NCBI GenBank assembly: GCA_965153355.1
Contig: OZ231126.1
Span: 42,222,001-42,286,000, forward strand
Direction of reading: 5' to 3'
Origin: Flaccisagitta enflata
Taxonomy: Eukaryota
DNA: 64,000 bases
This document shows positions 1 to 58,596 of the stretch, piece by piece. Each line of letters begins with the position of its first letter. The first letter of the stretch is position 1. Under the pieces are notes generated by a model that did not search any database, was not told where the DNA came from, and saw only the letters and a program-made list of their open reading frames with translations. Made by a program: the position numbers and the translations under genes.

Positions 1-905
1 ACCTTGTGTCACAGATTCACTTTTTCCTGAAAACAATTTTTAACTGGTGTCTAAAATGACTAAAGAAAAAAAATAATTTTTCCTATAATAAAGGATTTTG
101 AAATTGGTTGGGAGGAAGCCATGATTTTCAATCCCATGGCCGATTCCTGATGATTTTCTTGATCTCTTCAAACCAAACAGTGGAGGGCACTTTGTTGAAG
201 TGCGACCCGCCTGTACTTGGGTCTTGGAGGTGTATATATATGTATGTGGATACTTTTGTATGTATATATGTATATATATATGGGTCGAAACCCTTTAAGG
301 TACAGGACTCCAACTGATGACCAGAAGCTGTATGGTTTGATAGTTTTATAAAAAAAATTTTTGGACATGTACTAAAACTTTTTTACCCTTCATGGTGACC
401 TATCATCCCATGATATATCTTCTTTGAAGATGAAGGCCTTTTTCCCTTTAATCACTAAAAATCATAACCATAACCATATATAGTATAAATTCTCCTAAAT
501 CCCACCCCCCTAATTAGGATAAAGGGGCTCAACTAGGGATATGGACACCTTGGTTCCCTTTTTCAATTAGGTCAACTTTAACCAAAATTGGGCTGAGTTG
601 ATGGTCCCGATCAATGCCAGAAGACAGCTCTAACAACACCCTTTCCCTAAAATATTCATTATTTCTAAATAAAATATTTAGATATTCATTTTTAAGATAG
701 GAAAATATGACACATTTAGTAAAAAGTATATGCCTAAGGAATTTTGTTAGTGTTTCAAAAGACCACAGATTAGGTATGTATGTGTATGTAATGGAAGCTT
801 ACACTATATAAATGTCCATATCTTTTCCAAATTTTGTTCAATTTCTGTTTCCTTTTGATTAATTGTATGAGTTTTATATAGGATAAATTGTTGCACAAGC
901 CACAT
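1..905 (+). repeat. 5' pseudo-LTR (partial, continues left of the window)
   Basis: Direct repeat of 4485-5390. By eye it differs by one A-run indel and two substitutions. Identity ends at ...CAAGCCACAT. Confidence 0.95.
187..320 (+). ncRNA. Candidate structured, pseudoknotted RNA motif in the pseudo-LTR (second copy at 4672-4805)
   Basis: Pairings 187-192/198-203, 204-209/218-223, 210-216/300-306 (pseudoknot), 224-229/308-313, 233-250/255-272 and 282-285/290-293. Function not shown. Confidence 0.5.
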
Positions 906-973
906 AGTTTAGTGCCTTGGTATAGAATGTCCGGCGGTCCCATTTGGTGACTCTCGATTCTTGCCTTTAGGGC

Positions 974-2124
974 ATGGTTTCTTTCAACAGTATTATAACT
1001 GTAATACAAAATATTGTAACAAATCTTTATTCCTCAACAATTATGGCGAACGAAACTTTAATAAAAAAATGCAATGGGCGATCCTGTGGTACGTGTCCAT
1101 TTTTAGAAGAAAAAAATTGTTTTCATTCAAATTCTACAGGACAAAGACATAAACCTTTAACAGCAGATCAGGATTTTCTAACTTGTAAATCAGAAAATGT
1201 TATTTACATGATTTATTGTCAGGTTTGCAATATTCAATATATAGGTGAAACTAAACAAAAGTTAATAAGAAGATTTAGTAATCATAAGACTAACATAAAT
1301 GGTAAAAAGTCAGGCCAAGTTGTTCATAAACATTTTGAAGAAAGTGGCCATGGCATTTCCAATCTTAGAGTAATTCCCATAGAAAAAATAGATAAGAATA
1401 ATGTTAATTTGCGAGGCTTAAATGAAATCCAGAAGGATAAGGCAATAACTAAATACAGGCTAGAACGTGAGAAAATTTGGATTTCAAAATTGCAGACTGC
1501 TTATCCCTTTGGATTAAATATTTCTGTCAAAGGGGTCGGTGACTTTAATGTTTCCCAGGGACTGTACCAAAATTTTGAAGGACGAAAAAGGAGAAAAAAT
1601 AAAAAACATTCTAGAAGAAAACCAAAAAGGTTAAGAAATAACAATGATATATCTATGGATTTTTTAAAAAGAAAACATACTGAGCTTAGAGATAAAGATA
1701 ATTATATTCATTTCTTTAAAACCTTTTTATATGGTCTACCTAGACAACAGTTACAAACATTACAAAATAATGCAAGACAGGATAATATGATAGATGATAG
1801 ATTAAGAGATATGATAAATATGATTTCCCACCAGAAATTATTTAAACCAGTCCAAACTAATATAAAGAAGGATAGAGATTTTTATCATATTCAATTTAGA
1901 GACAAAGGACTGGATCATATCAATATAAGCCAAATACTTAGAAATAAAAGTGTCACAGATAAGATTCCAATTTATTTTACTGATAAGGAGCCTCCTATAA
2001 TTGGATATAGGTTTAACAGAAGTATTGCTGGTAATATTTTTAATTATAAGGAGAGCTTGTCAGAAGAGTCAATTGGAAAATTTGAAAATGGTGACATTCA
2101 TTGTAATTGCCAAAATTCCATTTA
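974..2124 (+). CDS. PLE polyprotein, 5' part: Cys motif, GIY-YIG endonuclease and CxC linker (interrupted by a MITE; as written the ORF stops at 2140)
   Basis: KKCNGRSCGTC; NVIYMIYCQVCNIQYIGET (GIY-YIG); RFSNH and VHKHF (CCHH); REKIWI...PFGLN; basic NLS-like RKRRKNKKHSRRK; IHCNCQNS (CxC). Alternative start Met at 1043. Confidence 0.93.
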
Positions 2125-2533
2125 CTACTCGACTCAATAAAAAAGCCGCACTTTTAAATGACAAATTGTCATACTGAATTTCATAAAAACTAATTAAAAT
2201 CTTAGACAGTTAGAAAGCTCTTGAAAAGATCTTTCATTTGGCACCAATCTGGTATTGCTATCTTTTTTTGTTTAGAAATGACATTAGTTTGAGTAAAAAC
2301 TTTGCCTATTTCAGTTTTGTAATCTCTATGAAAAAAGTGCATTTTAGCAAAATAGTGCTTTTCTTTGCAGAGCTCTAGCTCCTAAACCGTTTGAGATACA
2401 GATCTGGGATTGGTCTAGAATGAAAGAAAATTTGATATAGGTTTAACAGAAGTATTGCAGGTAATATTTTTAATTATGCTTGTAATCAATTGGAAAATTT
2501 ATGGTGCATTCTTTGTAATTGACAAAATTCCAG
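2125..2533 (+). mobile_element. TA-TSD MITE inserted in the PLE ORF; right ~100 bp replaced by a degenerate copy of PLE 2004-2122
   Basis: TA at 2123-2124 and 2534-2535. 2125-2427 is colinear with the complete 411-bp copy at 35136-35546; the landmark GGTCTAGAATGAAAGA sits at offset 287 in both. Confidence 0.88.
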
Positions 2534-4201
2534 TATAAGGATGACCACCACGGTCATGTTATAACTGGAAACTTAGAAATAATTGAAAATACAATGCTAC
2601 GAAATATATTTAAAAGAGGACCCAAATATAGATTACCCCAAAGAATAAATTGGTCAGAAGATAAAAATCACATAATAAATTTTCTTGAGTCTTATATTGA
2701 AAATTGGACGGCTAAAGAAAGGAAACAAGGTAACATATTGGTAAAAAAAGAAGATTTAGATTTATGGAAAAATGAGATACTAAGAGTAGTAGACAACAAA
2801 ATAAGTCGAGGTAAAACTTTATTTAAAAGGACCTGGTCGAAAAGATTAGATGGTAGTCTAGCCACAGAATTGGCAAGATTGAAACAGGATTTTGTCATTA
2901 CTGTGGCAGATAAAGCTCAAAATAACATTTTATTCACTTGTAAATATTTTTATATAAAAAACTTAAAGGAAGAATTGACACGACCAGGTCAATTAACCTA
3001 TCAATTGTCAAATAAGGGACAAAATGATACTAATAAAGATATAATTAATTTTTCAAAATGCAAGGGTATTAAAGTTCCAGAGAATATGGGAGACCTGCCT
3101 CTGATATATTGGATACCCAAAATGCATAAGAATCCAATAGGCAGTAGATTTATTGCAGGATCCAAATTTTGTTCAATCAAGATGCTCTCAAAATACTTTT
3201 CTAAGGCTTTGAAATTAATTTTACATCATATGAAGCTATATAATAAAACAGTTTTTGAGAGGACAAGTTTGAATTGTTTTTGGATTTTGGATAACTCTTT
3301 AGAATTTTTGGAAAAAATAAAATCTGAAAGGATAATCCATATGGAAACATATGATTTTTCCACTCTATATACGGCCTTGCCTCATGGAGAAATAAAACGT
3401 AAATTTTCAGCTATTTTTCAGAAAGTTTTTAATAGGGAGGCAAGGCCATACATAAGTGTCAATATGAATGAGGCTTATTTTAGTCCTACAAAGGCTAAAA
3501 ATAAATTTTCATTCAGATCGGCAGACATGCAGGAAATTTTAGAATTTATATTGGATAATATTTATGTAAAATTTGGTGCAAATGTATATAAGCAAGTGAT
3601 AGGTATTCCTATTGGTCTTGATTCTGGACAGGATATTGCTAATTTACTTTTATATAGTTATGAATCAGACTATGTGGGTGAAATTTCTAAGGTAGATCTT
3701 CCGACAGCAAGGAAATTTAAGCTTAATGGAAGATATATTGATGATCTTTTTGTAGCTAATTTTCCAACCTTTAGGGATCATATCTATGAAATATACCCTC
3801 AAGACCTAGAAATTAAATTAGAATCTAATAATACCCAGGAAGTAACATACTTAGACTTAAAAATTAAATCGGAAAATTCTACTCTAAATTTTTCTGTCTA
3901 TGATAAACGTGATGATTTCTCTTTTGATATTGTCAATTTTCCCTACATAGACAGCTGTATACCAAAAAAATCAGCCTTGGGTGTTTATTTAAGTCAATTG
4001 ATAAGATATGCTAAATTGTCATCTAAATATGAAGATTTTTTACAAAGAAGCAGATCTTTGGTTGATAAACTAAAGACCCAAGGCTACAAAGAACATGATT
4101 TAAAACGACTAACTTCAAGATTTTTTAGGGAAAAACATGATATTCTAATAAAATATAATATTCCTAATACAGATGATTTTTTGAAAAATATATTTGAATA
4201 A
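2534..4201 (+). CDS. PLE polyprotein, 3' part: Penelope-type reverse transcriptase
   Basis: HGHVITGNL, KRGPKYR, ADKAQNN, YWIPKMHK..GSRFI, YDFSTLYT (motif A), QVIGIPIG..IANLLL (B), RYIDD (C), YLDL (E), YDKRDDFSFDIVNFP (thumb). Same frame as the EN ORF. Confidence 0.95.
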   Translation, partial: YKDDHHGHVITGNLEIIENTMLRNIFKRGPKYRLPQRINWSEDKNHIINFLESYIENWTAKERKQGNILVKKEDLDLWKNEILRVVDNKISRGKTLFKRTWSKRLDGSLATELARLKQDFVITVADKAQNNILFTCKYFYIKNLKEELTRPGQLTYQLSNKGQNDTNKDIINFSKCKGIKVPENMGDLPLIYWIPKMHKNPIGSRFIAGSKFCSIKMLSKYFSKALKLILHHMKLYNKTVFERTSLNCFWILDNSLEFLEKIKSERIIHMETYDFSTLYTALPHGEIKRKFSAIFQKVFNREARPYISVNMNEAYFSPTKAKNKFSFRSADMQEILEFILDNIYVKFGANVYKQVIGIPIGLDSGQDIANLLLYSYESDYVGEISKVDLPTARKFKLNGRYIDDLFVANFPTFRDHIYEIYPQDLEIKLESNNTQEVTYLDLKIKSENSTLNFSVYDKRDDFSFDIVNFPYIDSCIPKKSALGVYLSQLIRYAKLSSKYEDFLQRSRSLVDKLKTQGYKEHDLKRLTSRFFREKHDILIKYNIPNTDDFLKNIFE

Positions 4202-4484
4202 AATTTTGGTGGGAGGCTATGAGAATCTTTTGACCCACTTGTCGCAGACCATAGCCAAACACCATCTTAGTTTTAATATAGTCCCTAAATTTTGGTGAAA
4301 GGCTGTGTTTCTCTTGACCAACTTGTCGTAGTTACATAGCTGGACACCTTTTGGGAAATTTTAACACTTTTCTAAAATAATATTCATATTTTAATATAAG
4401 TGTTTCTATTTTGACCTTGTGTCGCAGATTCACTTTATCTTCTTATATAAAAAAAATATTTTTAACATATGTGTTTCTATTTTG

Positions 4485-5390
4485 ACCTTGTGTCACAGAT
4501 TCACTTTTTCCTGAAAACAATTTTTAACTGGTGTCTAAAATGACTAAAGAAAAAAAAATAATTTTTCCTATAATAAAGGATTTTGAAATTGGTTGGGAGG
4601 AAGCCATGATTTTCAATCCCATGGCCGATTCCTGATGATTTTCTTGATCTCTTCAAACCAAACAGTGGAGGGCACTTTGTTGAAGTGCGACCCGCCTGTA
4701 CTTGGGTCTTGGAGGTGTATATATATGTATGTGGATACTTTTGTATGTATATATGTATATATATATGGGTCGAAACCCTTTAAGGTACAGGACTCCAACT
4801 GATGACCAGAAGCTGTATGGTTTGATAGTTTTATAAAAAAAATTTTTGGACATGTACTAAAACTTTTTTACCCTTCATGGTGACCTATCATCCCATGATA
4901 TATCTTCTTTGAAGATGAAGGCCTTTTTCCCTTTAATCACTAAAAATCATAACCATAACCATATATAGTATAAATTCTCCTAAATCCCACCCCCCTAATT
5001 AGGATAAAGGGGCTCAACTAGGGATATGGACACCTTGGTTCCCTTTTTCAATTAGGTCAACTCTAACCAAAATTGGGCTGAGTTGATGGTCCCGATCAAT
5101 GCCAGAAGACAGCTCTAACAACACCCTTTCCCTAAAATATTCATTATTTCTAAATAAAATATTTAGATATTTATTTTTAAGATAGGAAAATATGACACAT
5201 TTAGTAAAAAGTATATGCCTAAGGAATTTTGTTAGTGTTTCAAAAGACCACAGATTAGGTATGTATGTGTATGTAATGGAAGCTTACACTATATAAATGT
5301 CCATATCTTTTCCAAATTTTGTTCAATTTCTGTTTCCTTTTGATTAATTGTATGAGTTTTATATAGGATAAATTGTTGCACAAGCCACAT
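4485..5390 (+). repeat. 3' pseudo-LTR
   Basis: Near-identical to 1-905. The true repeat may extend further left into 4202-4484, since the 5' copy is cut by the window edge. Confidence 0.95.
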
Positions 5391-6128
5391 CCAAGCAATG
5401 AGAAAAACATAGCAAAATCCATGAGTATTTTGAAGCTCTGCGAAAGATCTTTCCAATGAGACCTTGCTGGTTGTCATAACTCTTTTTGTTTAGAAATGGC
5501 AGAAGAATGAAGACAGGTGGTCAAGAATTTGGAAAATCAGTATCACCTGATTTTCATGGGTTATCTTTGTTGTAACATAGGAATTAAATGAATTGAGTTA
5601 GAAATTTGTTCTTGACCCCATTTTATGGAAAACTCATAGCTCTTTAATTTGCTCATGGATATCGAGTAGCTATGACAATCCTGAGCTACGTAATTGACAA
5701 AAACGAAAAGAGTAAAATTTCGCGATGGAAAAAATTGAAATGAGCATTTTTTCCAATCTGTGATCTTTTTGTTTAATCCTTTGCCATTTCTAAATGAATG
5801 AAGCTACAATGTCCAGCAACGTCGCGTTTTGAAGATGTTTTGCAGAGCTTTTAAACAGTCATGGATTTTCCGAAGTTCAGGTCAATAGTAATACAGAAAT
5901 TAGTAAAAGAAGTTGTCCATTTTTTTACACCATGTTTAGTTAACTGGATAATGATGTTTACTTTAAACTCCTGTAGCTCCCTAGCTAAAAAACGCAAATC
6001 CGAAAAATTGGTGACATAAAAAAACTGCACTTCAAGATCTATTCAGACCTTTTTTCAGAATTGAAATAGCTTTTCTAGGAGAAAAGCTATGTCGATTCCA
6101 TAAAGAGCAAAAGACTTGATACACCCTG
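5391..6128. mobile_element. Right part of a Tc1/mariner-like non-autonomous element, apparent target of the PLE
   Basis: Ends in ...ACACCCTG-TA, a typical CAGGGTGT terminus. Shares GAAAGATCTTTC and TTTAGAAATGGCA motifs with other MITEs in the window. No left end visible. Confidence 0.55.
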
Positions 6129-6302
6129 TAGATCTCTCTCACCCTCTGTCTTTCTCTATACCATGTAAAGAGGGAAGAAGGATGTGACTTCACCCGGCTA
6201 GGTGATGCAAATGTGTCAATGTTCTCAAAACAAAATAGTGAAATACGATATAATGCATATCAAATATATAGGTTTGTATACACAACAGAAAAAAAGAGAT
6301 CC

Positions 6303-6392
<90 letters not shown>

Positions 6393-6484
6393 GCCCTTCA
6401 TTGATCGAGTTGTTGCTGGTGGCGGCTCTTCATCATCCATCATTCATTATTGCTTCATTATTAGTCATTTAGAATATCTTTTTA

Positions 6485-7320
6485 TCGGGGAAAAAAGTTG
6501 AAGTCAGTCTTCGACTTTTTGACATATTCGAGAGAAACAGGGTTTTCATTTTCTTATGACGAAGTTGAGGGTCTCGATCGACCGATTGGGGCCTCCAATG
6601 AAATTGATAGGGTAAGTAAATTTGATAATTCGCTTTCATTTGGCGCCAAGCAAAATGCTCTACAACAAATATTTTTTGTGCAATGAATTTTTAAAGATTT
6701 AATTATGAAACATTTGAATGAAATTTTTTTGATTTTTTTCGATTTAATGTAGGATCGATAAAAGAGTGTATTTATGTTTGTTTGAGCATGCAAATACAAG
6801 AAAACATGTTAATGAGCACAGCTACTCATCTGTGAGGGCGTTTTTGAGCATTTTAGCTCATTTAGCTCACTTAACTCAGTCTATTCTTTCTGATTTCAAA
6901 TTCTATAAATGAATAAATATTTTCTTACATTTTTAAACAAGCCAAGACAAGAAAGCGTATCAGTGAGCAGAGCCGCTCATCTGTGAGGGTGTTTTTAAAG
7001 ATTCTAGCTCATTTAGCTCATTTAGTTTGCTCTTTTTCTCTGATCTTTGATAGGATGAATAAATTAAAGAAAGCAAGAAAACAAGAAAGCAAGGCAGTGA
7101 GCAAAGCTGGTTGTCTGGTTGAATTATTTCAATATTTTAGCTCATCTAGCTCATTTGGCTCAGTTCTATTTTTCTGTGATTTTCAGTGCAATCAATACAT
7201 ACAATTGCTTTTGATTCGAAGTAACAAATAAAAGAAATTTCAATGACTGAAGACAAAAGCATTACATGGTGAAAAGTGACTAATGCTTACGACTTTTTTC
7301 CTCACGGCGACAGCCGCCAT
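6485..7320 (+). mobile_element. Helentron/HINE (DINE-1)-like element, family A
   Basis: 5' GGAAAAAAGTYGAAG with adjacent inverted copy; 3' CGACTTTTTTCC followed by a GGCG..CGCC hairpin. Related copies at 10557-11245, 59836-60494 and 63422-64000. Confidence 0.7.
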
Positions 7321-8497: not shown

Positions 8498-9260
8498 AAA
8501 CAAGGCCGGATACACGGCTACCCCAGTCGCGTGCGGGTGGGCAGGGGCAGAAATTGAGGTCACCAGATCATTTGGGCAGGAGCAGTGAGGCCAAAAACCG
8601 CAAAAGCGTTAGATGGTCAGCGGTACCCGTTGCCCCTATGTGAGTGTATGTGGGTGTGAGGCGGTTAGAGGGGCAGCGGCCCCGAAGGGGCCGATGACCT
8701 ATGCTGTTTTTATTTGGGCCTCAAGGATGGAATTAGGGCCTGGAGGCTGGAATTGGGGCCTTGAGGCTTGGATTAGGGCCTTGAGGCTGGGATTTGAGCT
8801 TTGAGGCTGGGATTACAGCTTCAAGGCTGAGATTTGCGCTTCAAGGCTGGGATTTGAGCTTTGAGGTTGGGATTTGAGCTTTGGGGCAGGGATTTGAGCT
8901 TGGAAGCTGGTATTTGAGCTTCAAGGCTGGGATTTGTGCCTTGAGACTGGGATTTGAGTCTAAGGGCTGGGATTTGAGCCTCGAGGCTGGGATTTGAGCC
9001 TCGAGGCTGGGATTTGAGCCTCAAAGCTAGGATTTGGGCCTTAAGGGGGGGGGGACGGAGAAGGAGAAGAAGGAGAAGGAGAAGAAGAAGAAGGAGAAAT
9101 TTCCCCTATGTGTGAAAGCATAGGTCATCGGCCCCTTCGGGGCCGCTGCCCAAAATAGGAAAGTGTGACGGACGGACCGACGGACGGACCGACTGACCGA
9201 CGGACCGACGGACGGACCGACAAAGCGGGGTGTAGAGTCGCGTAGCACGCGACTAAAAAA
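8498..9260 (+). mobile_element. Composite HINE-like repeat: family C (terminal GTCGCGT..ACGCGAC hairpin, GACG microsatellite) containing family B (GGGCAGCGGCCCC inverted repeats, 21-bp minisatellite)
   Basis: Family C also at ~13401-13607, 21293-21565, 22493-22725, 37856-38035 and 40665-41397. Family B also at ~9565-10085, 25517-26785, 30408-31390, 52820-53430 and 62540-63265. Confidence 0.7.
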
Positions 9261-10303
9261 AGGCGCATGAAACATGTCTAAAACGCTTCTCTTTGATGTC
9301 CTCAGAACCACCCACCTCCCACCTCAGCTTACAAGGAATACAACCAAAACCGTCTCTGCCAACTGAATCAAAATCGATTACATGGCCTGGTAAAAGAGAA
9401 AGCATCTAAAAACCACCGGCCTTACTAGCTCGAGCTTTTGTGTTTACTGCCTGTTGACACTCTTCCGATCGATATCCGAGTATTATATGTATCAGAATCA
9501 GGAAATGAACAACAACCACTAAAACAACAACATCAAAAACAGAAACAATGATATCATCATTAATAGTCGCAAAAGCGTTAGAGAGTCAGCGGTACCCTTG
9601 CCCTGCTTAAGTAGGTTGTGGTTGAAGTTGAGGGGGGAGCAGGGCAGCGGCCCCAAAGGGGTCAATGACCTATGCTGCTAAACATATGGGGAATTTTCTC
9701 CTCCTCCTCCTCCTCCTCCTCCTCCTCCTCCTCCTCCTTCTTCTTCTTCTTCTCCTACTCCGCACCCCCCCCCCACCCCCCAGGCTCATATCTCAGCCTT
9801 GATACCCCATAACCCAGCCTCAAGGCCCGAATCCCAGTCTTGAGGCACAAATCTCTTGAGGCTGGAATTTAGGCCTTGGGGTTGGGACTTAGGCCTCAAG
9901 ACCGGGATTTGGGCCTCGAGGCTGGGATATGGGCCTCAAGTCTGAGACATGGGCCAGGAGGGGGAAGGGTGCGAAGGAGAAGAAGAAGAAGGAGAAGGAG
10001 GAGAAAGCATAGTCATTGTGAGAATTGTGAATTGTAAATTGTGAGAAAGCATAGGTCATCGACCCCTTCGGGGCCGCTGCCCAAAAAAACAACGACAAGA
10101 ACAACACCAACGACAACGATGTGGAACCCATCGCACAATGACTGCGCCTAATGTGGGGCCCCCACAGTGGGAGCAGAGAGCCTCTACTTTCATTGTAAAT
10201 AAAGCCAAACGTAATTCAACAAAAACCCGGGCATGATTCTAACAAGTGGATGATGCTTGAGTCTCCACTTGTTTCCGAAAACAACGTCAACAACAATAGG
10301 ATC

Positions 10304-10304
<1 letters not shown>

Positions 10305-10378
<74 letters not shown>

Positions 10379-10552
10379 AACAACAACAACAACAACAACA
10401 ACGACAAACGACGACGACGACGACAACAATGACAATGAAAACGGCAATGACAATGACAACGAAAATTACAACGACAACGACAACGGCAATGACAATGACA
10501 ATGACAATGACAACGGCAATGACAATGACAATGACAATGACAACGACAGCAA
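10305..10552. repeat. (AAC)n / (GACAAT)n microsatellite
   Basis: Directly visible. Confidence 0.95.
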
Positions 10553-10556
10553 CTAG

Positions 10557-11245
<689 letters not shown>

Positions 11246-11685: not shown

Positions 11686-21792
<10,107 letters not shown>

Positions 21793-22955: not shown

Positions 22956-23379
22956 CCACTCGACTCAAAAAAAAGACGCACCTGTTTATAAATTGATAAA
23001 ACAGGTATAAAAATTAATTTGAACTTTTTTCAAAGAAAATATTTTTAAAGATTTTCAAAAAATCTTTCAATCTAGACCAATCCCAGCTCTGTATCTTGAA
23101 CGGTTTAGAAGCTAGAGCCTTGCAAAGAGAAGCACTAATTTGCTAAAATGCATTTTTTCTTAGGGATTGCAAAACTGAAATGGGCAACGTTTTCACTAAA
23201 ACGAATTCCATTTCTAAACAAAAAAGATAGCAATACCAAATCGGCGCCAAATGAAAGTACTTTCAAAGGGCTTTCAGATGACCTATGATTTTGATAGGTT
23301 TTTCTTTGATTCATAGGTAAAATTAGTCATCCAAAAGTGCGTCTTTTTTTTTTTTTTTTTTTTTTTTTGAGTCGTATGG
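22956..23379 (-). mobile_element. TA-TSD MITE, same family as the PLE insertion
   Basis: TIR CCACTCGACTCAAAAAAAAGACGCAC; interior is the reverse complement of the 2125 and 35136 copies. Confidence 0.85.

Positions 23380-33462: not shown

Positions 33463-58596
<25,134 letters not shown>

What the first reader, a model, noticed from the sequence alone, without database searches (positions are those of the whole stretch)
187..320. Candidate new ribozyme or RT-recognition RNA: a multi-helix pseudoknot in the pseudo-LTR of a Naiad-type element
Seen: a ~130-nt segment in which nearly every base can be placed in a helix. Hairpin GCACUU/AAGUGC (187-203) abuts hairpin GACCCG/UGGGUC (204-223). The loop of the second, CCUGUAC (210-216), pairs with GUACAGG (300-306). 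UUGGAG (224-229) pairs with CUCCAA (308-313), enclosing an 18-bp AU/GU hairpin (233-272) and GGGU-CGAA-ACCC (282-293). Seven G-U wobbles in the long hairpin work only on the sense strand. UGGGUC occurs twice (218-223, 281-286), so GACCCG has two alternative partners, a possible switch. Hammerhead-like words (GAAACC..GGUA at 287-302, CUGAUGA at 314-320) are present but do not close into a hammerhead. A second copy lies at 4672-4805. Known: canonical PLEs carry hammerheads in the pseudo-LTR, N-terminal-EN PLEs were described as lacking them, and PLE RTs are sister to telomerase RT. Inference: this fold may be what Naiads use instead. Options are a self-cleaving RNA that cuts tandem transcripts into monomers, a telomerase-RNA-like pseudoknot with a (UA)n template for priming at microsatellites, or an IRES. 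I cannot match it to hammerhead, HDV, twister or pistol consensus.
Basis: partly seen in the sequence, partly recalled or inferred. Interest (0 to 1): 0.82.

Follow-up and report, generated by a model that had tools for sequence, protein, structure and literature searches.

The report
Rewired hammerhead ribozyme in Naiad retrotransposons
The folded RNA in this retrotransposon's repeat looks like a hammerhead self-cutting RNA with its pieces wired in an unreported order, which would mean some Naiad elements, thought to lack hammerheads, carry one in disguise.

Summary
The segment is real, identical in both pseudo-LTR copies and strongly strand-specific in folding. Relatives from marine metagenomes change the reading.

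- **Occurrence:** 12 of 80 Naiad loci plus both window copies carry the same motif. All lie on the sense strand, downstream of or flanking the RT gene. About 0.2 hits are expected by chance.
- **Hammerhead core:** every core nucleotide is invariant in 11 of 11 distinct sequences: CUGAUGA, GAA, A15.1-U16.1, G10.1-C11.1 and a non-G at position 17.
- **Helices:** stems I, II, III and a fourth helix tying stems I and II together all covary.
- **Strand order:** stem II 5' strand, cleavage-site block, GAA block, then stem I 3' strand plus CUGAUGA. This belongs to the non-circularly permuted hammerhead class (types SGC/CSG; Eckert et al. 2023). Here the CUGAUGA block is also split from stem II by a hairpin (P0) and a closing helix (P1), an arrangement that paper assumed away.
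- **Databases:** Rfam finds nothing.
- **Not conserved:** Two of its local hairpins are not conserved either.

Predicted cut: C223|U224 (and C4708|U4709). Cleavage is untested.

The parts
168..180 (+). P1, 5' strand of the helix that closes the whole domain (pairs with 328-340)
   Evidence: Constrained fold gives 168-175/333-340 plus 177-180/328-331. The flank duplex is more stable than shuffles in 8 of 11 sequences (at most 7 of 300 shuffles as good); window 3 of 300.
187..203 (+). P0 hairpin, directly abutting the 5' strand of stem II
   Evidence: Present in the MFE fold. In the constrained folds a hairpin ending at or next to the stem II 5' strand is predicted in 9 of 11 sequences; in L038 it was seen only by eye and in L076 it is weak or absent.
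204..208 (+). Stem II, 5' strand (GACCC; G204 = G10.1), displaced upstream instead of following CUGAUGA
   Evidence: Pairs with 282-286. 100% of cells paired in 7 and in 4 sequences, covariation 0.895 and 0.933, 0 of 500 shuffles as high. G10.1-C11.1 in 11 of 11.
210..218 (+). P4, 5' strand (pairs with 298-306). This helix ties the far ends of stems I and II together.
   Evidence: An anchored stem of 7-11 bp in 10 of 11 sequences, with 0-40 of 2000 shuffles as long (9 of the 10 at 5 or fewer). It was not required by the search descriptor. L002 has a U-U mismatch.
219..222 (+). Stem III, 5' strand (GGGU; U222 = U16.1)
   Evidence: Pairs with 290-293. 3 of 4 pairs change on both sides; 100% of cells paired.
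223..223 (+). C17, predicted cleavage site (cut between C223 and U224)
   Evidence: Position 17 is C in 6, A in 3 and U in 2 of 11 sequences. The site is inferred by analogy with hammerheads. Cleavage is not tested.
224..229 (+). Stem I, 5' strand (UUGGAG)
   Evidence: Pairs with 308-313. 4 of 5 pairs change on both sides.
230..281 (+). 52-nt AU/GU hairpin, an insertion seen only in the window sequence, replacing the 1-6 nt linker between stem I and stem II
   Evidence: It fills the linker exactly, flush with both stems. The linker is 1-6 nt in the other 10 sequences. Only weak miRNA-like Rfam hits, 18-28 bits against gathering thresholds of 80-101.
282..286 (+). Stem II, 3' strand (GGGUC; C286 = C11.1)
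287..289 (+). G12 A13 A14 of the hammerhead core
   Evidence: GAA in 11 of 11 sequences.
290..293 (+). Stem III, 3' strand (ACCC; A290 = A15.1)
   Evidence: The A15.1-U16.1 pair is present in 11 of 11.
298..306 (+). P4, 3' strand
308..313 (+). Stem I, 3' strand (CUCCAA)
314..320 (+). C3-A9 of the hammerhead core (CUGAUGA)
   Evidence: CUGAUGA in 11 of 11 sequences. The 5 nt after A9 pair with the stem II 3' strand at only 0-3 of 5 positions, so block C is split.
328..340 (+). P1, 3' strand
4653..4825 (+). Second, identical copy of the whole domain in the downstream pseudo-LTR (predicted cut C4708|U4709)
   Evidence: 66-365 equals 4551-4850 at 100%. A strict descriptor hit falls here.
1043..4201 (+). 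Naiad ORF (GIY-YIG endonuclease, CxC motif, RT), interrupted at 2126-2533 by an unrelated repeat

Best explanation
Positions 168-340 (and the identical 4653-4825) encode a hammerhead-type RNA with a rewired backbone.

**Layout.** Three helices meet at a complete hammerhead core (C17 = C223, G12A13A14 = 287-289, C3-A9 = 314-320):
- stem I: 224-229/308-313
- stem II: 204-208/282-286
- stem III: 219-222/290-293

The strands run in this order: stem II 5' strand, site block, GAA block, then stem I 3' strand plus CUGAUGA. A fourth helix, P4 (210-218/298-306), ties the far ends of stems I and II together, as in type-SGC hammerheads.

**What differs from every described type.** The CUGAUGA strand is not followed by stem II. 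A hairpin (P0, 187-203) and a closing helix (P1, 168-180/328-340) sit between A9 and G10.1.

**Shown.** The architecture, its conservation and its covariation.

**Inferred.**
- The RNA cuts itself between C223 and U224, leaving 2',3'-cyclic phosphate and 5'-OH ends.
- In a transcript running pLTR-ORF-pLTR, the two cuts release a 4485-nt unit RNA. Its two ends are the complementary halves of the ribozyme.
- This is the job proposed for canonical hammerheads in other Penelope-like elements.
For: **Homology without reference to structure.**
- BLAST of the 3' UTR found the homologous region in L001, L002 and L003.
- Reading those regions showed the same helices with different letters, and no UA hairpin.

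**Descriptor search.**
- A strict descriptor (CUGANGA, GAAA, U-H, perfect stems I, II, III in the permuted order) hits 14 places on + strands: 12 of 80 loci plus 2 window copies.
- It hits 0 places on - strands.
- It gives 20 hits in 100 block-shuffled sets searched on both strands.

**Core, 11 distinct sequences.**
- CUGAUGA 11/11 and GAA 11/11.
- G10.1-C11.1 11/11 and A15.1-U16.1 11/11. The G10.1-C11.1 identity was not demanded by the descriptor.
- H17 is C, A or U.

**Covariation.**

| Helix / alignment | Cells paired | Other measures |
|---|---|---|
| Stems I + III | 95.9% (slid controls 34-59%) | 7 of 9 pairs change on both sides; 0 of 500 shuffles as high |
| Stem II | 100% | covariation 0.895 and 0.933; 0 of 500 shuffles as high |
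| Plain MAFFT alignment of four 89%-identical relatives | 99% | variation concentrates in stem II; 4 of 5 pairs change on both sides |

**Helices not required by the descriptor.**
- P4 is 7-11 bp in 10 of 11 sequences.
- The P1 duplex beats shuffles in 8 of 11.

**Distribution.** Motif-bearing elements sit in at least 5 separate RT lineages, on both sides of the midpoint root, at 31-63% RT identity to the window.

**Precedent (sections read: Results 13, 15; Discussion 18).**
- Eckert et al. 2023 (PMC10085705) showed that type-SGC and type-CSG hammerheads cleave in vitro.
- They have a typical 3-nt linker from stem I to stem II. Here the linker is 3 nt in 6 of 11.
- They need a fourth stem joining stems I and II.

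**Prior hint (Methods passage).** Craig et al. 2021 (PMC8557442) noted hammerhead 'core' and 'half-core' words in some Naiads that fit no descriptor.
Against: - No cleavage data exist for this motif.
- The backbone break between A9 and G10.1 has no precedent. Eckert et al. state that known hammerhead alignments have no insertion of more than 1-2 nt there. That step is next to the catalytic core, so activity could be lost or need a protein.
- The window copy has a 52-nt hairpin in the stem I to stem II linker, which no relative has.
- In L076 and L042, stem III plus P4 form a rod of more than 20 bp. That is hard to reconcile with folding within one molecule (my geometric reasoning, not computed).
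- RNA-library contigs bridge the predicted cut: X11 record 10 covers 4468-4814 and X13 record 21 covers 4400-4813. Uncut RNA, or contaminating DNA, therefore exists.
- Pairing in stems I-III was a search criterion for the more distant members, so 'percent paired' is partly circular. The enrichment over shuffles, P4, P1 and alignment A4 are the non-circular parts.
- 11 sequences from about 5 lineages is a small sample.
- 9 loci with more than 1800 nt of 3' flank have no such motif, so it is not universal in Naiads.
- A helix starting flush after A9 is not statistically supported.
Confidence: 0.7

Rival explanations
1. The same rewired hammerhead, but it works only between two copies. The apical loop of one copy holds the site, the stem I 5' strand, the stem II 3' strand and GAA. 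It is clamped by the basal strands of another copy: the stem II 5' strand and the stem I 3' strand plus CUGAUGA. The second copy could be the other pseudo-LTR on the same transcript or a second RNA molecule. Cutting would then depend on tandem arrangement or on RNA concentration.
For: - Stem III plus P4 form one bulged rod of 11 to more than 20 bp, which separates the loop from the flanks.
- In L076 (12 + 10 bp) and L042 the rod looks too long to fold back (inference).
- Small PLE hammerheads are reported to cleave as dimers. This comes from Cervera and de la Pena 2014 (abstract listing) and Lunse et al. 2017 (title seen in a reference list).
- The element always carries two copies per tandem unit.
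Against: - Type-SGC and type-CSG ribozymes of about 77 nt cleave in cis with the equivalent four helices.
- In the window and in the L004 group, P4 length plus linkers (10-12 nt) roughly matches the stacked height of stem III, core and stem II. That fits cis folding (inference).
- There is no direct evidence either way.
Confidence: 0.2
2. A conserved structured RNA that no longer cuts, or never did. It would be a hammerhead-derived scaffold in the 3' UTR that the Naiad RT or another protein recognises for template selection or RNA stability.
For: - The backbone break next to the catalytic core is unprecedented.
- Uncut RNA-library contigs bridge the site.
- In a canonical PLE the hammerhead needed protein to cut and was dispensable for in vitro insertion. 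This is from Frangieh et al. 2024, PMC11167929 (passages read).
Against: - A protein-binding scaffold has no reason to keep all 13 hammerhead core nucleotides invariant in 11 of 11 sequences across 31-63% RT identity while the stems vary freely.
- Position 17 avoids G, as the cleavage rule requires. This was a search criterion, however.
Confidence: 0.2
3. One reading: a new ribozyme class, a telomerase-RNA-like pseudoknot using the (UA)n tract as a template, or an IRES.
For: No Rfam family matches. PLE RTs are related to telomerase RT (Craig 2021 abstract).
Against: - Every conserved element maps onto the hammerhead core and stems.
- The (UA)n hairpin is absent from 10 of 10 distinct relatives.
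- The motif lies downstream of the only ORF.
Confidence: 0.03
4. A chance or low-complexity structure: a microsatellite-derived hairpin or miRNA-like precursor with accidental flanking complementarity.
For: Weak miRNA-family hits on 219-306, with E-values of 0.015-2.5 and 17-28 bits against gathering thresholds of 80-101. The centre is (UA/UG)n.
Against: The flanks are conserved and covary in relatives that lack the hairpin. There are 14 strict hits against about 0.2 expected.
Confidence: 0.02

Closest known systems
Type-SGC hammerhead ribozyme (HRIMA-1 motif and variants; Eckert, Friedrich, Weinberg and Weinberg, NAR 2023, PMC10085705)
   Same: - Same core nucleotides.
- The site block precedes the GAA block, which precedes CUGANGA.
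- The stem I 5' strand joins the stem II 3' strand through a short linker (typically 3 nt there; 3 nt in 6 of 11 here).
- A fourth stem ties the other sides of stems I and II together (P4 here).
- The distal end of that stem connects to stem III by a short linker.
- The stems cross one another (pseudoknots) instead of forming a plain three-way junction.
   Different: - In type SGC the stem II 5' strand directly follows CUGANGA, and its tail forms the fourth stem.
- Here that strand and the P4 5' strand lie upstream of the site block and are continuous with stem III.
- A9 is followed by unpaired bases and the closing helix P1, and hairpin P0 sits before G10.1.
- SGC examples come from metatranscriptomic RNAs that carry hairpin ribozymes. 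This motif sits in the DNA of a retrotransposon from a marine organism.
Type-CSG hammerhead ribozyme (same paper; two sequences, cleave in vitro)
   Same: The stem II 5' strand is followed by a linker, then the site block, then the GAA block. The circular order of blocks is the same.
   Different: - In CSG, stem I 3' strand plus CUGANGA directly precedes stem II at the 5' end, and the RNA ends after stem III.
- Here stem III continues through P4 into stem I 3' strand plus CUGAUGA at the 3' side.
- This motif is therefore the same ring opened inside block C, which the paper assumed cannot be interrupted.
Canonical type I hammerheads in pseudo-LTRs of Penelope/Poseidon, Neptune, Nematis, Hydra, Athena and Coprina PLEs (Cervera and de la Pena 2014; Craig et al. 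2021)
   Same: The genomic niche (pseudo-LTR of a PLE, sense strand), the core nucleotides, and a presumed role in processing tandem transcripts.
   Different: - The canonical ones are nested three-way junctions with a very short stem III.
- RNAmotif descriptors find those canonical forms; Craig et al. found none in Naiads with them, and Rfam finds nothing in this motif.
- This motif is pseudoknotted, about 170 nt with its closing helices, and invisible to those tools.

Membership tests
Hammerhead ribozyme (core definition) | C3-U4-G5-A6-N7-G8-A9 strand directly 3' of the stem I 3' strand | tested here: met
   CUGAUGA in 11 of 11 distinct sequences, directly after the stem I 3' strand.
Hammerhead ribozyme (core definition) | G12-A13-A14 between the stem II 3' strand and A15.1 of stem III | tested here: met
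   GAA followed by A in 11 of 11, flanked by covarying stems II and III.
Hammerhead ribozyme (core definition) | A15.1-U16.1 pair and a non-G at position 17, followed directly by stem I | tested here: met
   U-A in 11 of 11. H17 is C in 6, A in 3, U in 2. U16.1 (with stem III pairing) and non-G at 17 were part of the search descriptor.
Hammerhead ribozyme (core definition) | G10.1-C11.1 closing stem II | tested here: met
   G-C in 11 of 11; the G-C identity was not demanded by the descriptor.
Hammerhead ribozyme (core definition) | Stems I, II and III supported by compensatory changes | tested here: met
   The sample is small: 11 sequences from about 5 lineages.
Hammerhead ribozyme (core definition) | CUGANGA contiguous with the stem II 5' strand (block C uninterrupted; at most 1-2 nt inserted) | tested here: not met
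   The 5 nt after A9 pair with the stem II 3' strand at 0-3 of 5 positions in 11 of 11. The true partner lies about 60-170 nt upstream.
Hammerhead ribozyme (core definition) | Site-specific self-cleavage 3' of position 17 | not testable with these tools
   Only assembled contigs of public runs were available, which cannot show RNA ends.
Hammerhead ribozyme (Rfam models) | Match to an Rfam hammerhead covariance model | tested here: not met
   No hit at gathering score in the window and 40 loci. No hammerhead hit at E up to 10 in window 1-1000, L004 4180-4460 or L003 2040-2260. This is expected for a pseudoknotted rewiring.
Type-SGC hammerhead (Eckert et al. 2023) | Block order S, G, C with each block intact | tested here: not met
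   S then G then the CUGAUGA half of C is met. The stem II half of C lies before S.
Type-SGC hammerhead (Eckert et al. 2023) | Short linker from stem I to stem II, and a fourth stem joining the other sides of stems I and II | tested here: met
   Linker of 1-6 nt in 10 of 11 (52 nt in the window). P4 of 7-11 bp in 10 of 11.
Naiad clade of Penelope-like elements (Craig et al. 2021) | N-terminal GIY-YIG endonuclease, CxC linker motif, C-terminal RT, pseudo-LTR, no canonical hammerhead | tested here: met
   - GIY-YIG at residues 53-152 of the first ORF piece.
- CNC near the end of that piece.
- Full-length ~915-aa relatives with GIY-YIG.
- Pseudo-LTR repeat.
- No Rfam hammerhead.
- Clade placement against named Naiad references was not done.

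The most novel reading that the evidence does not exclude
This is a new hammerhead topology, outside the six block orders of Eckert et al. Its catalytic strand is cut off from stem II by a helical junction, and the stem III-P4 rod keeps each copy from closing on itself. The ribozyme would then fire only when two copies meet, either the two pseudo-LTRs of a tandem transcript or two RNAs. That would let it sense tandem arrangement. It would release unit-length RNAs whose ends stay paired and can be ligated into circles that template rolling-circle reverse transcription, which would explain the tandem insertions typical of PLEs.
Probability: 0.15. Interest if true: 0.9.

Novelty: new variant of a known kind. 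Interest (0 to 1): 0.8.

Why it matters
- **Naiads may not lack hammerheads.** Naiads were described as the PLE group that lacks hammerheads (Craig et al. 2021), which fed the idea that hammerheads are dispensable passengers. If this motif cuts, at least several Naiad lineages keep a hammerhead in a form standard searches cannot see, and the question has to be reopened.
- **A new hammerhead wiring.** For RNA biology this would be a non-circularly permuted hammerhead inside a genomic retrotransposon. In the papers I searched and read, I found none reported from a eukaryotic genome. It would also be the first hammerhead with the backbone interrupted between A9 and stem II, so it tests how much of the 'block' model is really required.
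- **Easy to test.** One short in vitro transcription experiment would decide it.
- **A search recipe.** The descriptor used here can be applied to other 'hammerhead-less' elements.

Tried and rejected
- **Whole-genome search:** no genome is held for this window.
- **Viral contigs:** the RT found nothing.
- **Earlier findings of this scan:** nothing relevant by sequence, words or place.
- **Canonical hammerhead readings (types I, II, III) by hand:** none closes, using either the CUGAUGA at 314-320 or the unconserved one at 147-153.
- **Relaxed descriptors** (up to 2 mismatches, with or without anchored P4): no new confident members. They gave about 9-10 hits per shuffled set, so I dropped them.
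- **Covariance model R1, built from four close relatives:**
  - It recovered 13 true places.
  - It missed L038 and L076 and misaligned the window because of the insertion.
  - It gave two probable false hits: window 5558-5636 on the - strand (E 0.12) and L050 2204-2278 (E 9.6).
- **MAFFT across all clades:** it misplaces the window's insertion and shifts some rows by 1-2 columns.
  - I therefore counted pairs on sub-alignments anchored at one end.
  - In alignment A8 the L038 row is still shifted and produces the 4 unpaired cells.
- **A short helix flush with A9, forming a perfect four-way junction:** not better than shuffles.
- **RNA ends:**
  - All runs are assembled contigs, so no starts or ends can be read.
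  - Two RNA-library contigs, from runs of one study, stop at 4813/4814. This is not independent evidence.
- **A variant lacking only the 52-nt hairpin:** none was listed among the best-supported joints in four runs. This does not show absence.
- **Supplements** of Craig 2021 and Eckert 2023: closed, not seen.
Full report
**What is in the window**

Positions 1-894 repeat at 4486-5389. Within that repeat, 66-365 equals 4551-4850 at 100%.

Between the repeats lies one ORF in two pieces.
- The first piece has a GIY-YIG domain (PF01541, E 6.9e-06) and ends with a CNC motif.
- The second piece is an RT.
- Full-length relatives are about 915 aa and carry GIY-YIG at the N-terminus.
- An intact 98%-identical protein (P0001) aligns to 1043-2125 and 2534-4198, so about 408 bp (2126-2533) interrupt this copy.

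The finding lies about 470 nt after the stop codon and about 590-680 nt before the element's 3' end at 5389.

**Checking the observation**

The quoted words and complementarities are all there.
- The + strand of 180-325 folds at -57.3 kcal/mol (z -5.6; 0 of 200 shuffles as good).
- The - strand reaches -32.2 (z -2.4).
- Rfam gives no match at gathering score anywhere in the window.
- At E up to 10 in 1-1000 there are only weak miRNA-like hits on the UA hairpin and no hammerhead.

**Relatives**

No genome is held for this window, and viral contigs gave nothing. The RT has 1525 relatives at E<=1e-5 among the 8000 candidates scored in the protein collection.

A 24-sequence alignment (A1) was used to scan metagenome contigs. 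Of 598 candidate stretches, 231 encode a relative, and the best 80 were kept as loci.

BLAST of the window's 3' UTR against these loci found homologous stretches in L001, L002 and L003. Reading them showed two things:
- the 52-nt UA hairpin is replaced by UUAAA or AUUAAA;
- the flanking helices are kept, with different letters.

**The architecture**

From 5' to 3' in window coordinates:

| Element | Coordinates | Note |
|---|---|---|
| P1, 5' strand | 168-180 | closing helix |
| P0 hairpin | 187-203 | abuts stem II |
| Stem II, 5' strand | 204-208 | |
| P4, 5' strand | 210-218 | |
| Stem III, 5' strand | 219-222 | |
| C17 | 223 | predicted cut after this base |
| Stem I, 5' strand | 224-229 | |
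| Linker | 230-281 | here a 52-nt hairpin |
| Stem II, 3' strand | 282-286 | |
| GAA | 287-289 | |
| Stem III, 3' strand | 290-293 | |
| Bulge | 294-297 | |
| P4, 3' strand | 298-306 | |
| Stem I, 3' strand | 308-313 | |
| CUGAUGA | 314-320 | |
| Unpaired | 321-327 | |
| P1, 3' strand | 328-340 | |

Around the junction this gives exactly the hammerhead core:
- U16.1-C17 followed by stem I;
- stem I followed by C3-A9;
- stem II (closed by G10.1-C11.1) followed by G12A13A14;
- then A15.1 of stem III.

The three stems cross one another, so no nested three-way junction can be drawn.

**Is it more than chance?**

The strict descriptor requires CUGANGA; GAAA 8-60 nt upstream; a non-G preceded by 4 bases that pair perfectly with stem III; 5 perfect pairs in stem I; and 5 perfect pairs in stem II with the partner upstream.
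- It hits 14 places on + strands: 12 of 80 loci plus the two window copies.
- It hits none on - strands.
- It gives 20 hits in 100 block-shuffled sets searched on both strands, about 0.2 per set.
- 13 of the 14 hits lie downstream of the RT gene. The L001 hit lies in an upstream pseudo-LTR.
- Removing two near-duplicates (L001 of L002, L005 of L004) and counting the two identical window copies once leaves 11 distinct sequences.

In those 11 sequences:
- CUGAUGA, GAA, G10.1-C11.1 and A15.1-U16.1 are invariant;
- position 17 is C (6), A (3) or U (2);
- the stem I to stem II linker is 1-6 nt in 10, and 52 nt only in the window.

Two further loci hold decayed copies (L071): L071 has CUGACGA and stem mismatches, and L050 has GAA changed to GGA.

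**Covariation**

Because pairing was a search criterion for the distant members, I looked first for evidence that does not depend on it.
- **Alignment A4.** Four relatives align by plain MAFFT at 89% column identity, and their differences concentrate in stem II. 4 of 5 stem II pairs change on both sides, and 99% of all cells are paired against 33-49% when partners are slid.
- **P4.** It was not in the strict descriptor, yet an anchored stem of 7-11 bp is present in 10 of 11 sequences, with 0-40 of 2000 shuffles as long. L002 has a U-U mismatch.
- **P1.** The duplex between the flanks beats shuffles (at most 7 of 300) in 8 of 11. It does not in L003, L038 and L076.

Across all 11 sequences:
- Stems I and III are 95.9% paired, with 7 of 9 pairs changing on both sides and 0 of 500 shuffles as high. 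The 4 unpaired cells come from the L038 row, which MAFFT shifted.
- Stem II is 100% paired, with covariation scores of 0.895 (7 sequences) and 0.933 (4 sequences) and 0 of 500 shuffles as high.

- 204-209/218-223 is 66.7% paired with no compensatory change;
- 282-285/290-293 is 45.5% paired.

**Comparison with what is known**

Eckert, Friedrich, Weinberg and Weinberg (NAR 2023, PMC10085705; I read Results sections 13 and 15 and the Discussion) split the hammerhead into three blocks:
- S: the cleavage site with its stem III and stem I strands;
- G: GAAA with its stem II and stem III strands;
- C: CUGANGA with its stem I and stem II strands.

They assumed the blocks cannot be interrupted. They described non-circular permutations SGC and CSG (both cleave in vitro) and GCS (doubtful).

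The present motif shares these features with type SGC:
- the S then G then CUGANGA order;
- the short linker from stem I to stem II;
- the extra stem that ties the other sides of stems I and II together, which that paper's mutants showed is required;
- the short connection from that stem to stem III, whose geometry the authors themselves found puzzling.

It differs in one respect. The stem II half of block C, with the P4 5' strand, lies upstream of S. The 5 nt after A9 pair with the stem II 3' strand at only 0-3 of 5 positions.

In their terms this is the SGC/CSG/GCS ring opened inside block C, with hairpin P0 and closing helix P1 bridging A9 and G10.1. The authors state that no known hammerhead alignment has more than 1-2 nt inserted there.

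Searches of the held library found no report of such a motif in Naiads or any PLE:
- 'Penelope-like' + 'Naiad' + 'hammerhead';
- 'non-circular permutation' + 'hammerhead';
- type-SGC terms;
- 'Naiad' + 'Penelope-like' + 'ribozyme'.

Craig et al. did record hammerhead 'core' and 'half-core' words in some Naiads in a supplementary file that I could not open. Those entries may be the same thing, left unexplained.

**How it probably works**

Shown: a conserved, covarying, sense-strand RNA with a complete hammerhead core.

Inferred:
- It self-cleaves between C223 and U224.
- In a pLTR-ORF-pLTR transcript, cuts at 223 and 4708 would release a 4485-nt unit whose two ends are the two halves of the ribozyme. 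The ends could stay paired through P1, stem II, P4 and stem III.

Whether one copy folds on itself or two copies are needed is open.
- For cis folding: the SGC/CSG precedent. Also, the 5' path from stem II to stem III is never shorter than 10 nt (10-26 nt), and P4 plus linkers in the window and the L004 group roughly equals the stacked height of stem III, core and stem II. This is my reasoning.
- For trans action: the long stem III-P4 rods of L076 and L042.

The role of hammerheads in PLEs is itself unsettled. In the one reconstituted PLE, the ribozyme needed protein and was not required for insertion in vitro (PMC11167929, passages read).

**RNA data**

The stretch is found in 20 public runs from 12 studies, mostly marine metagenomes, and 6 of the runs are RNA libraries. 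All of them are kept as contigs.

Laid on 4100-5500:
- Two metatranscriptome contigs bridge the whole domain: X11 record 10 (4468-4814, 2 differences) and X13 record 21 (4400-4813). Uncut RNA or contaminating DNA is therefore present.
- No variant reaching 10% was listed between 4621 and 4840, except one contig with an extra base after 4700.
- Contigs cannot show RNA ends, so they neither support nor refute cleavage.

**Distribution**

On a quick RT tree (72 rows; residues 300-522 of the query; FastTree; midpoint root; L076 omitted for low coverage), motif-bearing elements fall in at least five separate lineages on both sides of the root.
- 9 loci with more than 1800 nt of 3' flank lack the motif. 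6 of those 9 have no CUGANGA downstream at all.
- Many other loci have flanks too short to judge. The motif lies 244-1727 nt after the RT match in the positive loci.
- The motif is therefore old within this group but not universal.

**Limits**

- The sample is 11 distinct sequences.
- Cross-clade alignments were anchored by hand-chosen ranges.
- There is no 3D modelling and no cleavage data.
- Supplements that may bear on novelty were closed.
- The window copy itself carries the unique 52-nt insertion and a broken ORF, so compact relatives are the better first test objects.

Noticed in passing
window 2126-2533: About 408 bp interrupt the Naiad ORF. They comprise a ~310-bp repeat with other copies at 35134-35446 (+) and 23055-23352 (-), plus a ~100-bp imperfect duplication of 1999-2120. 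An intact 915-aa relative (P0001, 98%) spans the gap.
   Followed up: partly
window 4230-4247, 4314-4331, 4411-4427, 4482-4498 (also L001 98-115; L002 2764-2781, 2928-2945): Four copies of the motif TTGACC-N3-4-TGTCRYAG lie between the stop codon and the ribozyme (0.01 expected by chance). By eye, some sit in the loop of a small hairpin. The closest relatives share the motif. It may be a repeated protein-binding site in the 3' UTR.
   Followed up: partly
window 147-153: A second CUGAUGA lies upstream of the domain. It is absent at the corresponding place in L002 and L003 and fits no hammerhead reading.
   Followed up: partly
window 4852-5389 versus 4100-4851: In the DNA run X1, summed contig depth is roughly 5-40 times higher over the last ~540 bp of the element than over the ribozyme and upstream 3' UTR. 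This suggests many 5'-truncated copies or non-autonomous relatives sharing the 3' end. Depth from contigs is a poor measure.
   Followed up: no
window 5389/5390: Loose ends in several runs confirm the element's 3' end. In other copies it is followed by unrelated sequence, in one RNA-library contig by (CA)n rather than the (TA)n preference reported for Naiads. From 5390 onward the window enters another, far more abundant repeat.
   Followed up: no
L071 957-1031; L050 about 1800-1921: These are decayed copies of the permuted hammerhead. L071 has CUGACGA and mismatches in stems I-III. L050 has GAA changed to GGA and N7 = A. They show that the motif erodes in dead copies.
   Followed up: partly
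window 6242-6489, 8672-9071, 10240-11089, 19053-20062, 42322-42905, 45024-45839, 49088-49464, 54036-54953: The rest of the window is rich in micro- and minisatellite arrays with periods of about 8-20 bp and about 160 bp.
   Followed up: no
window 4813-4814: Two RNA-library contigs, from runs of one study, both stop here, just after CUGAUGA plus 7 nt, where the closing helix P1 begins. The likely cause is a repeat boundary in assembly, so this is not evidence of an RNA end.
   Followed up: no
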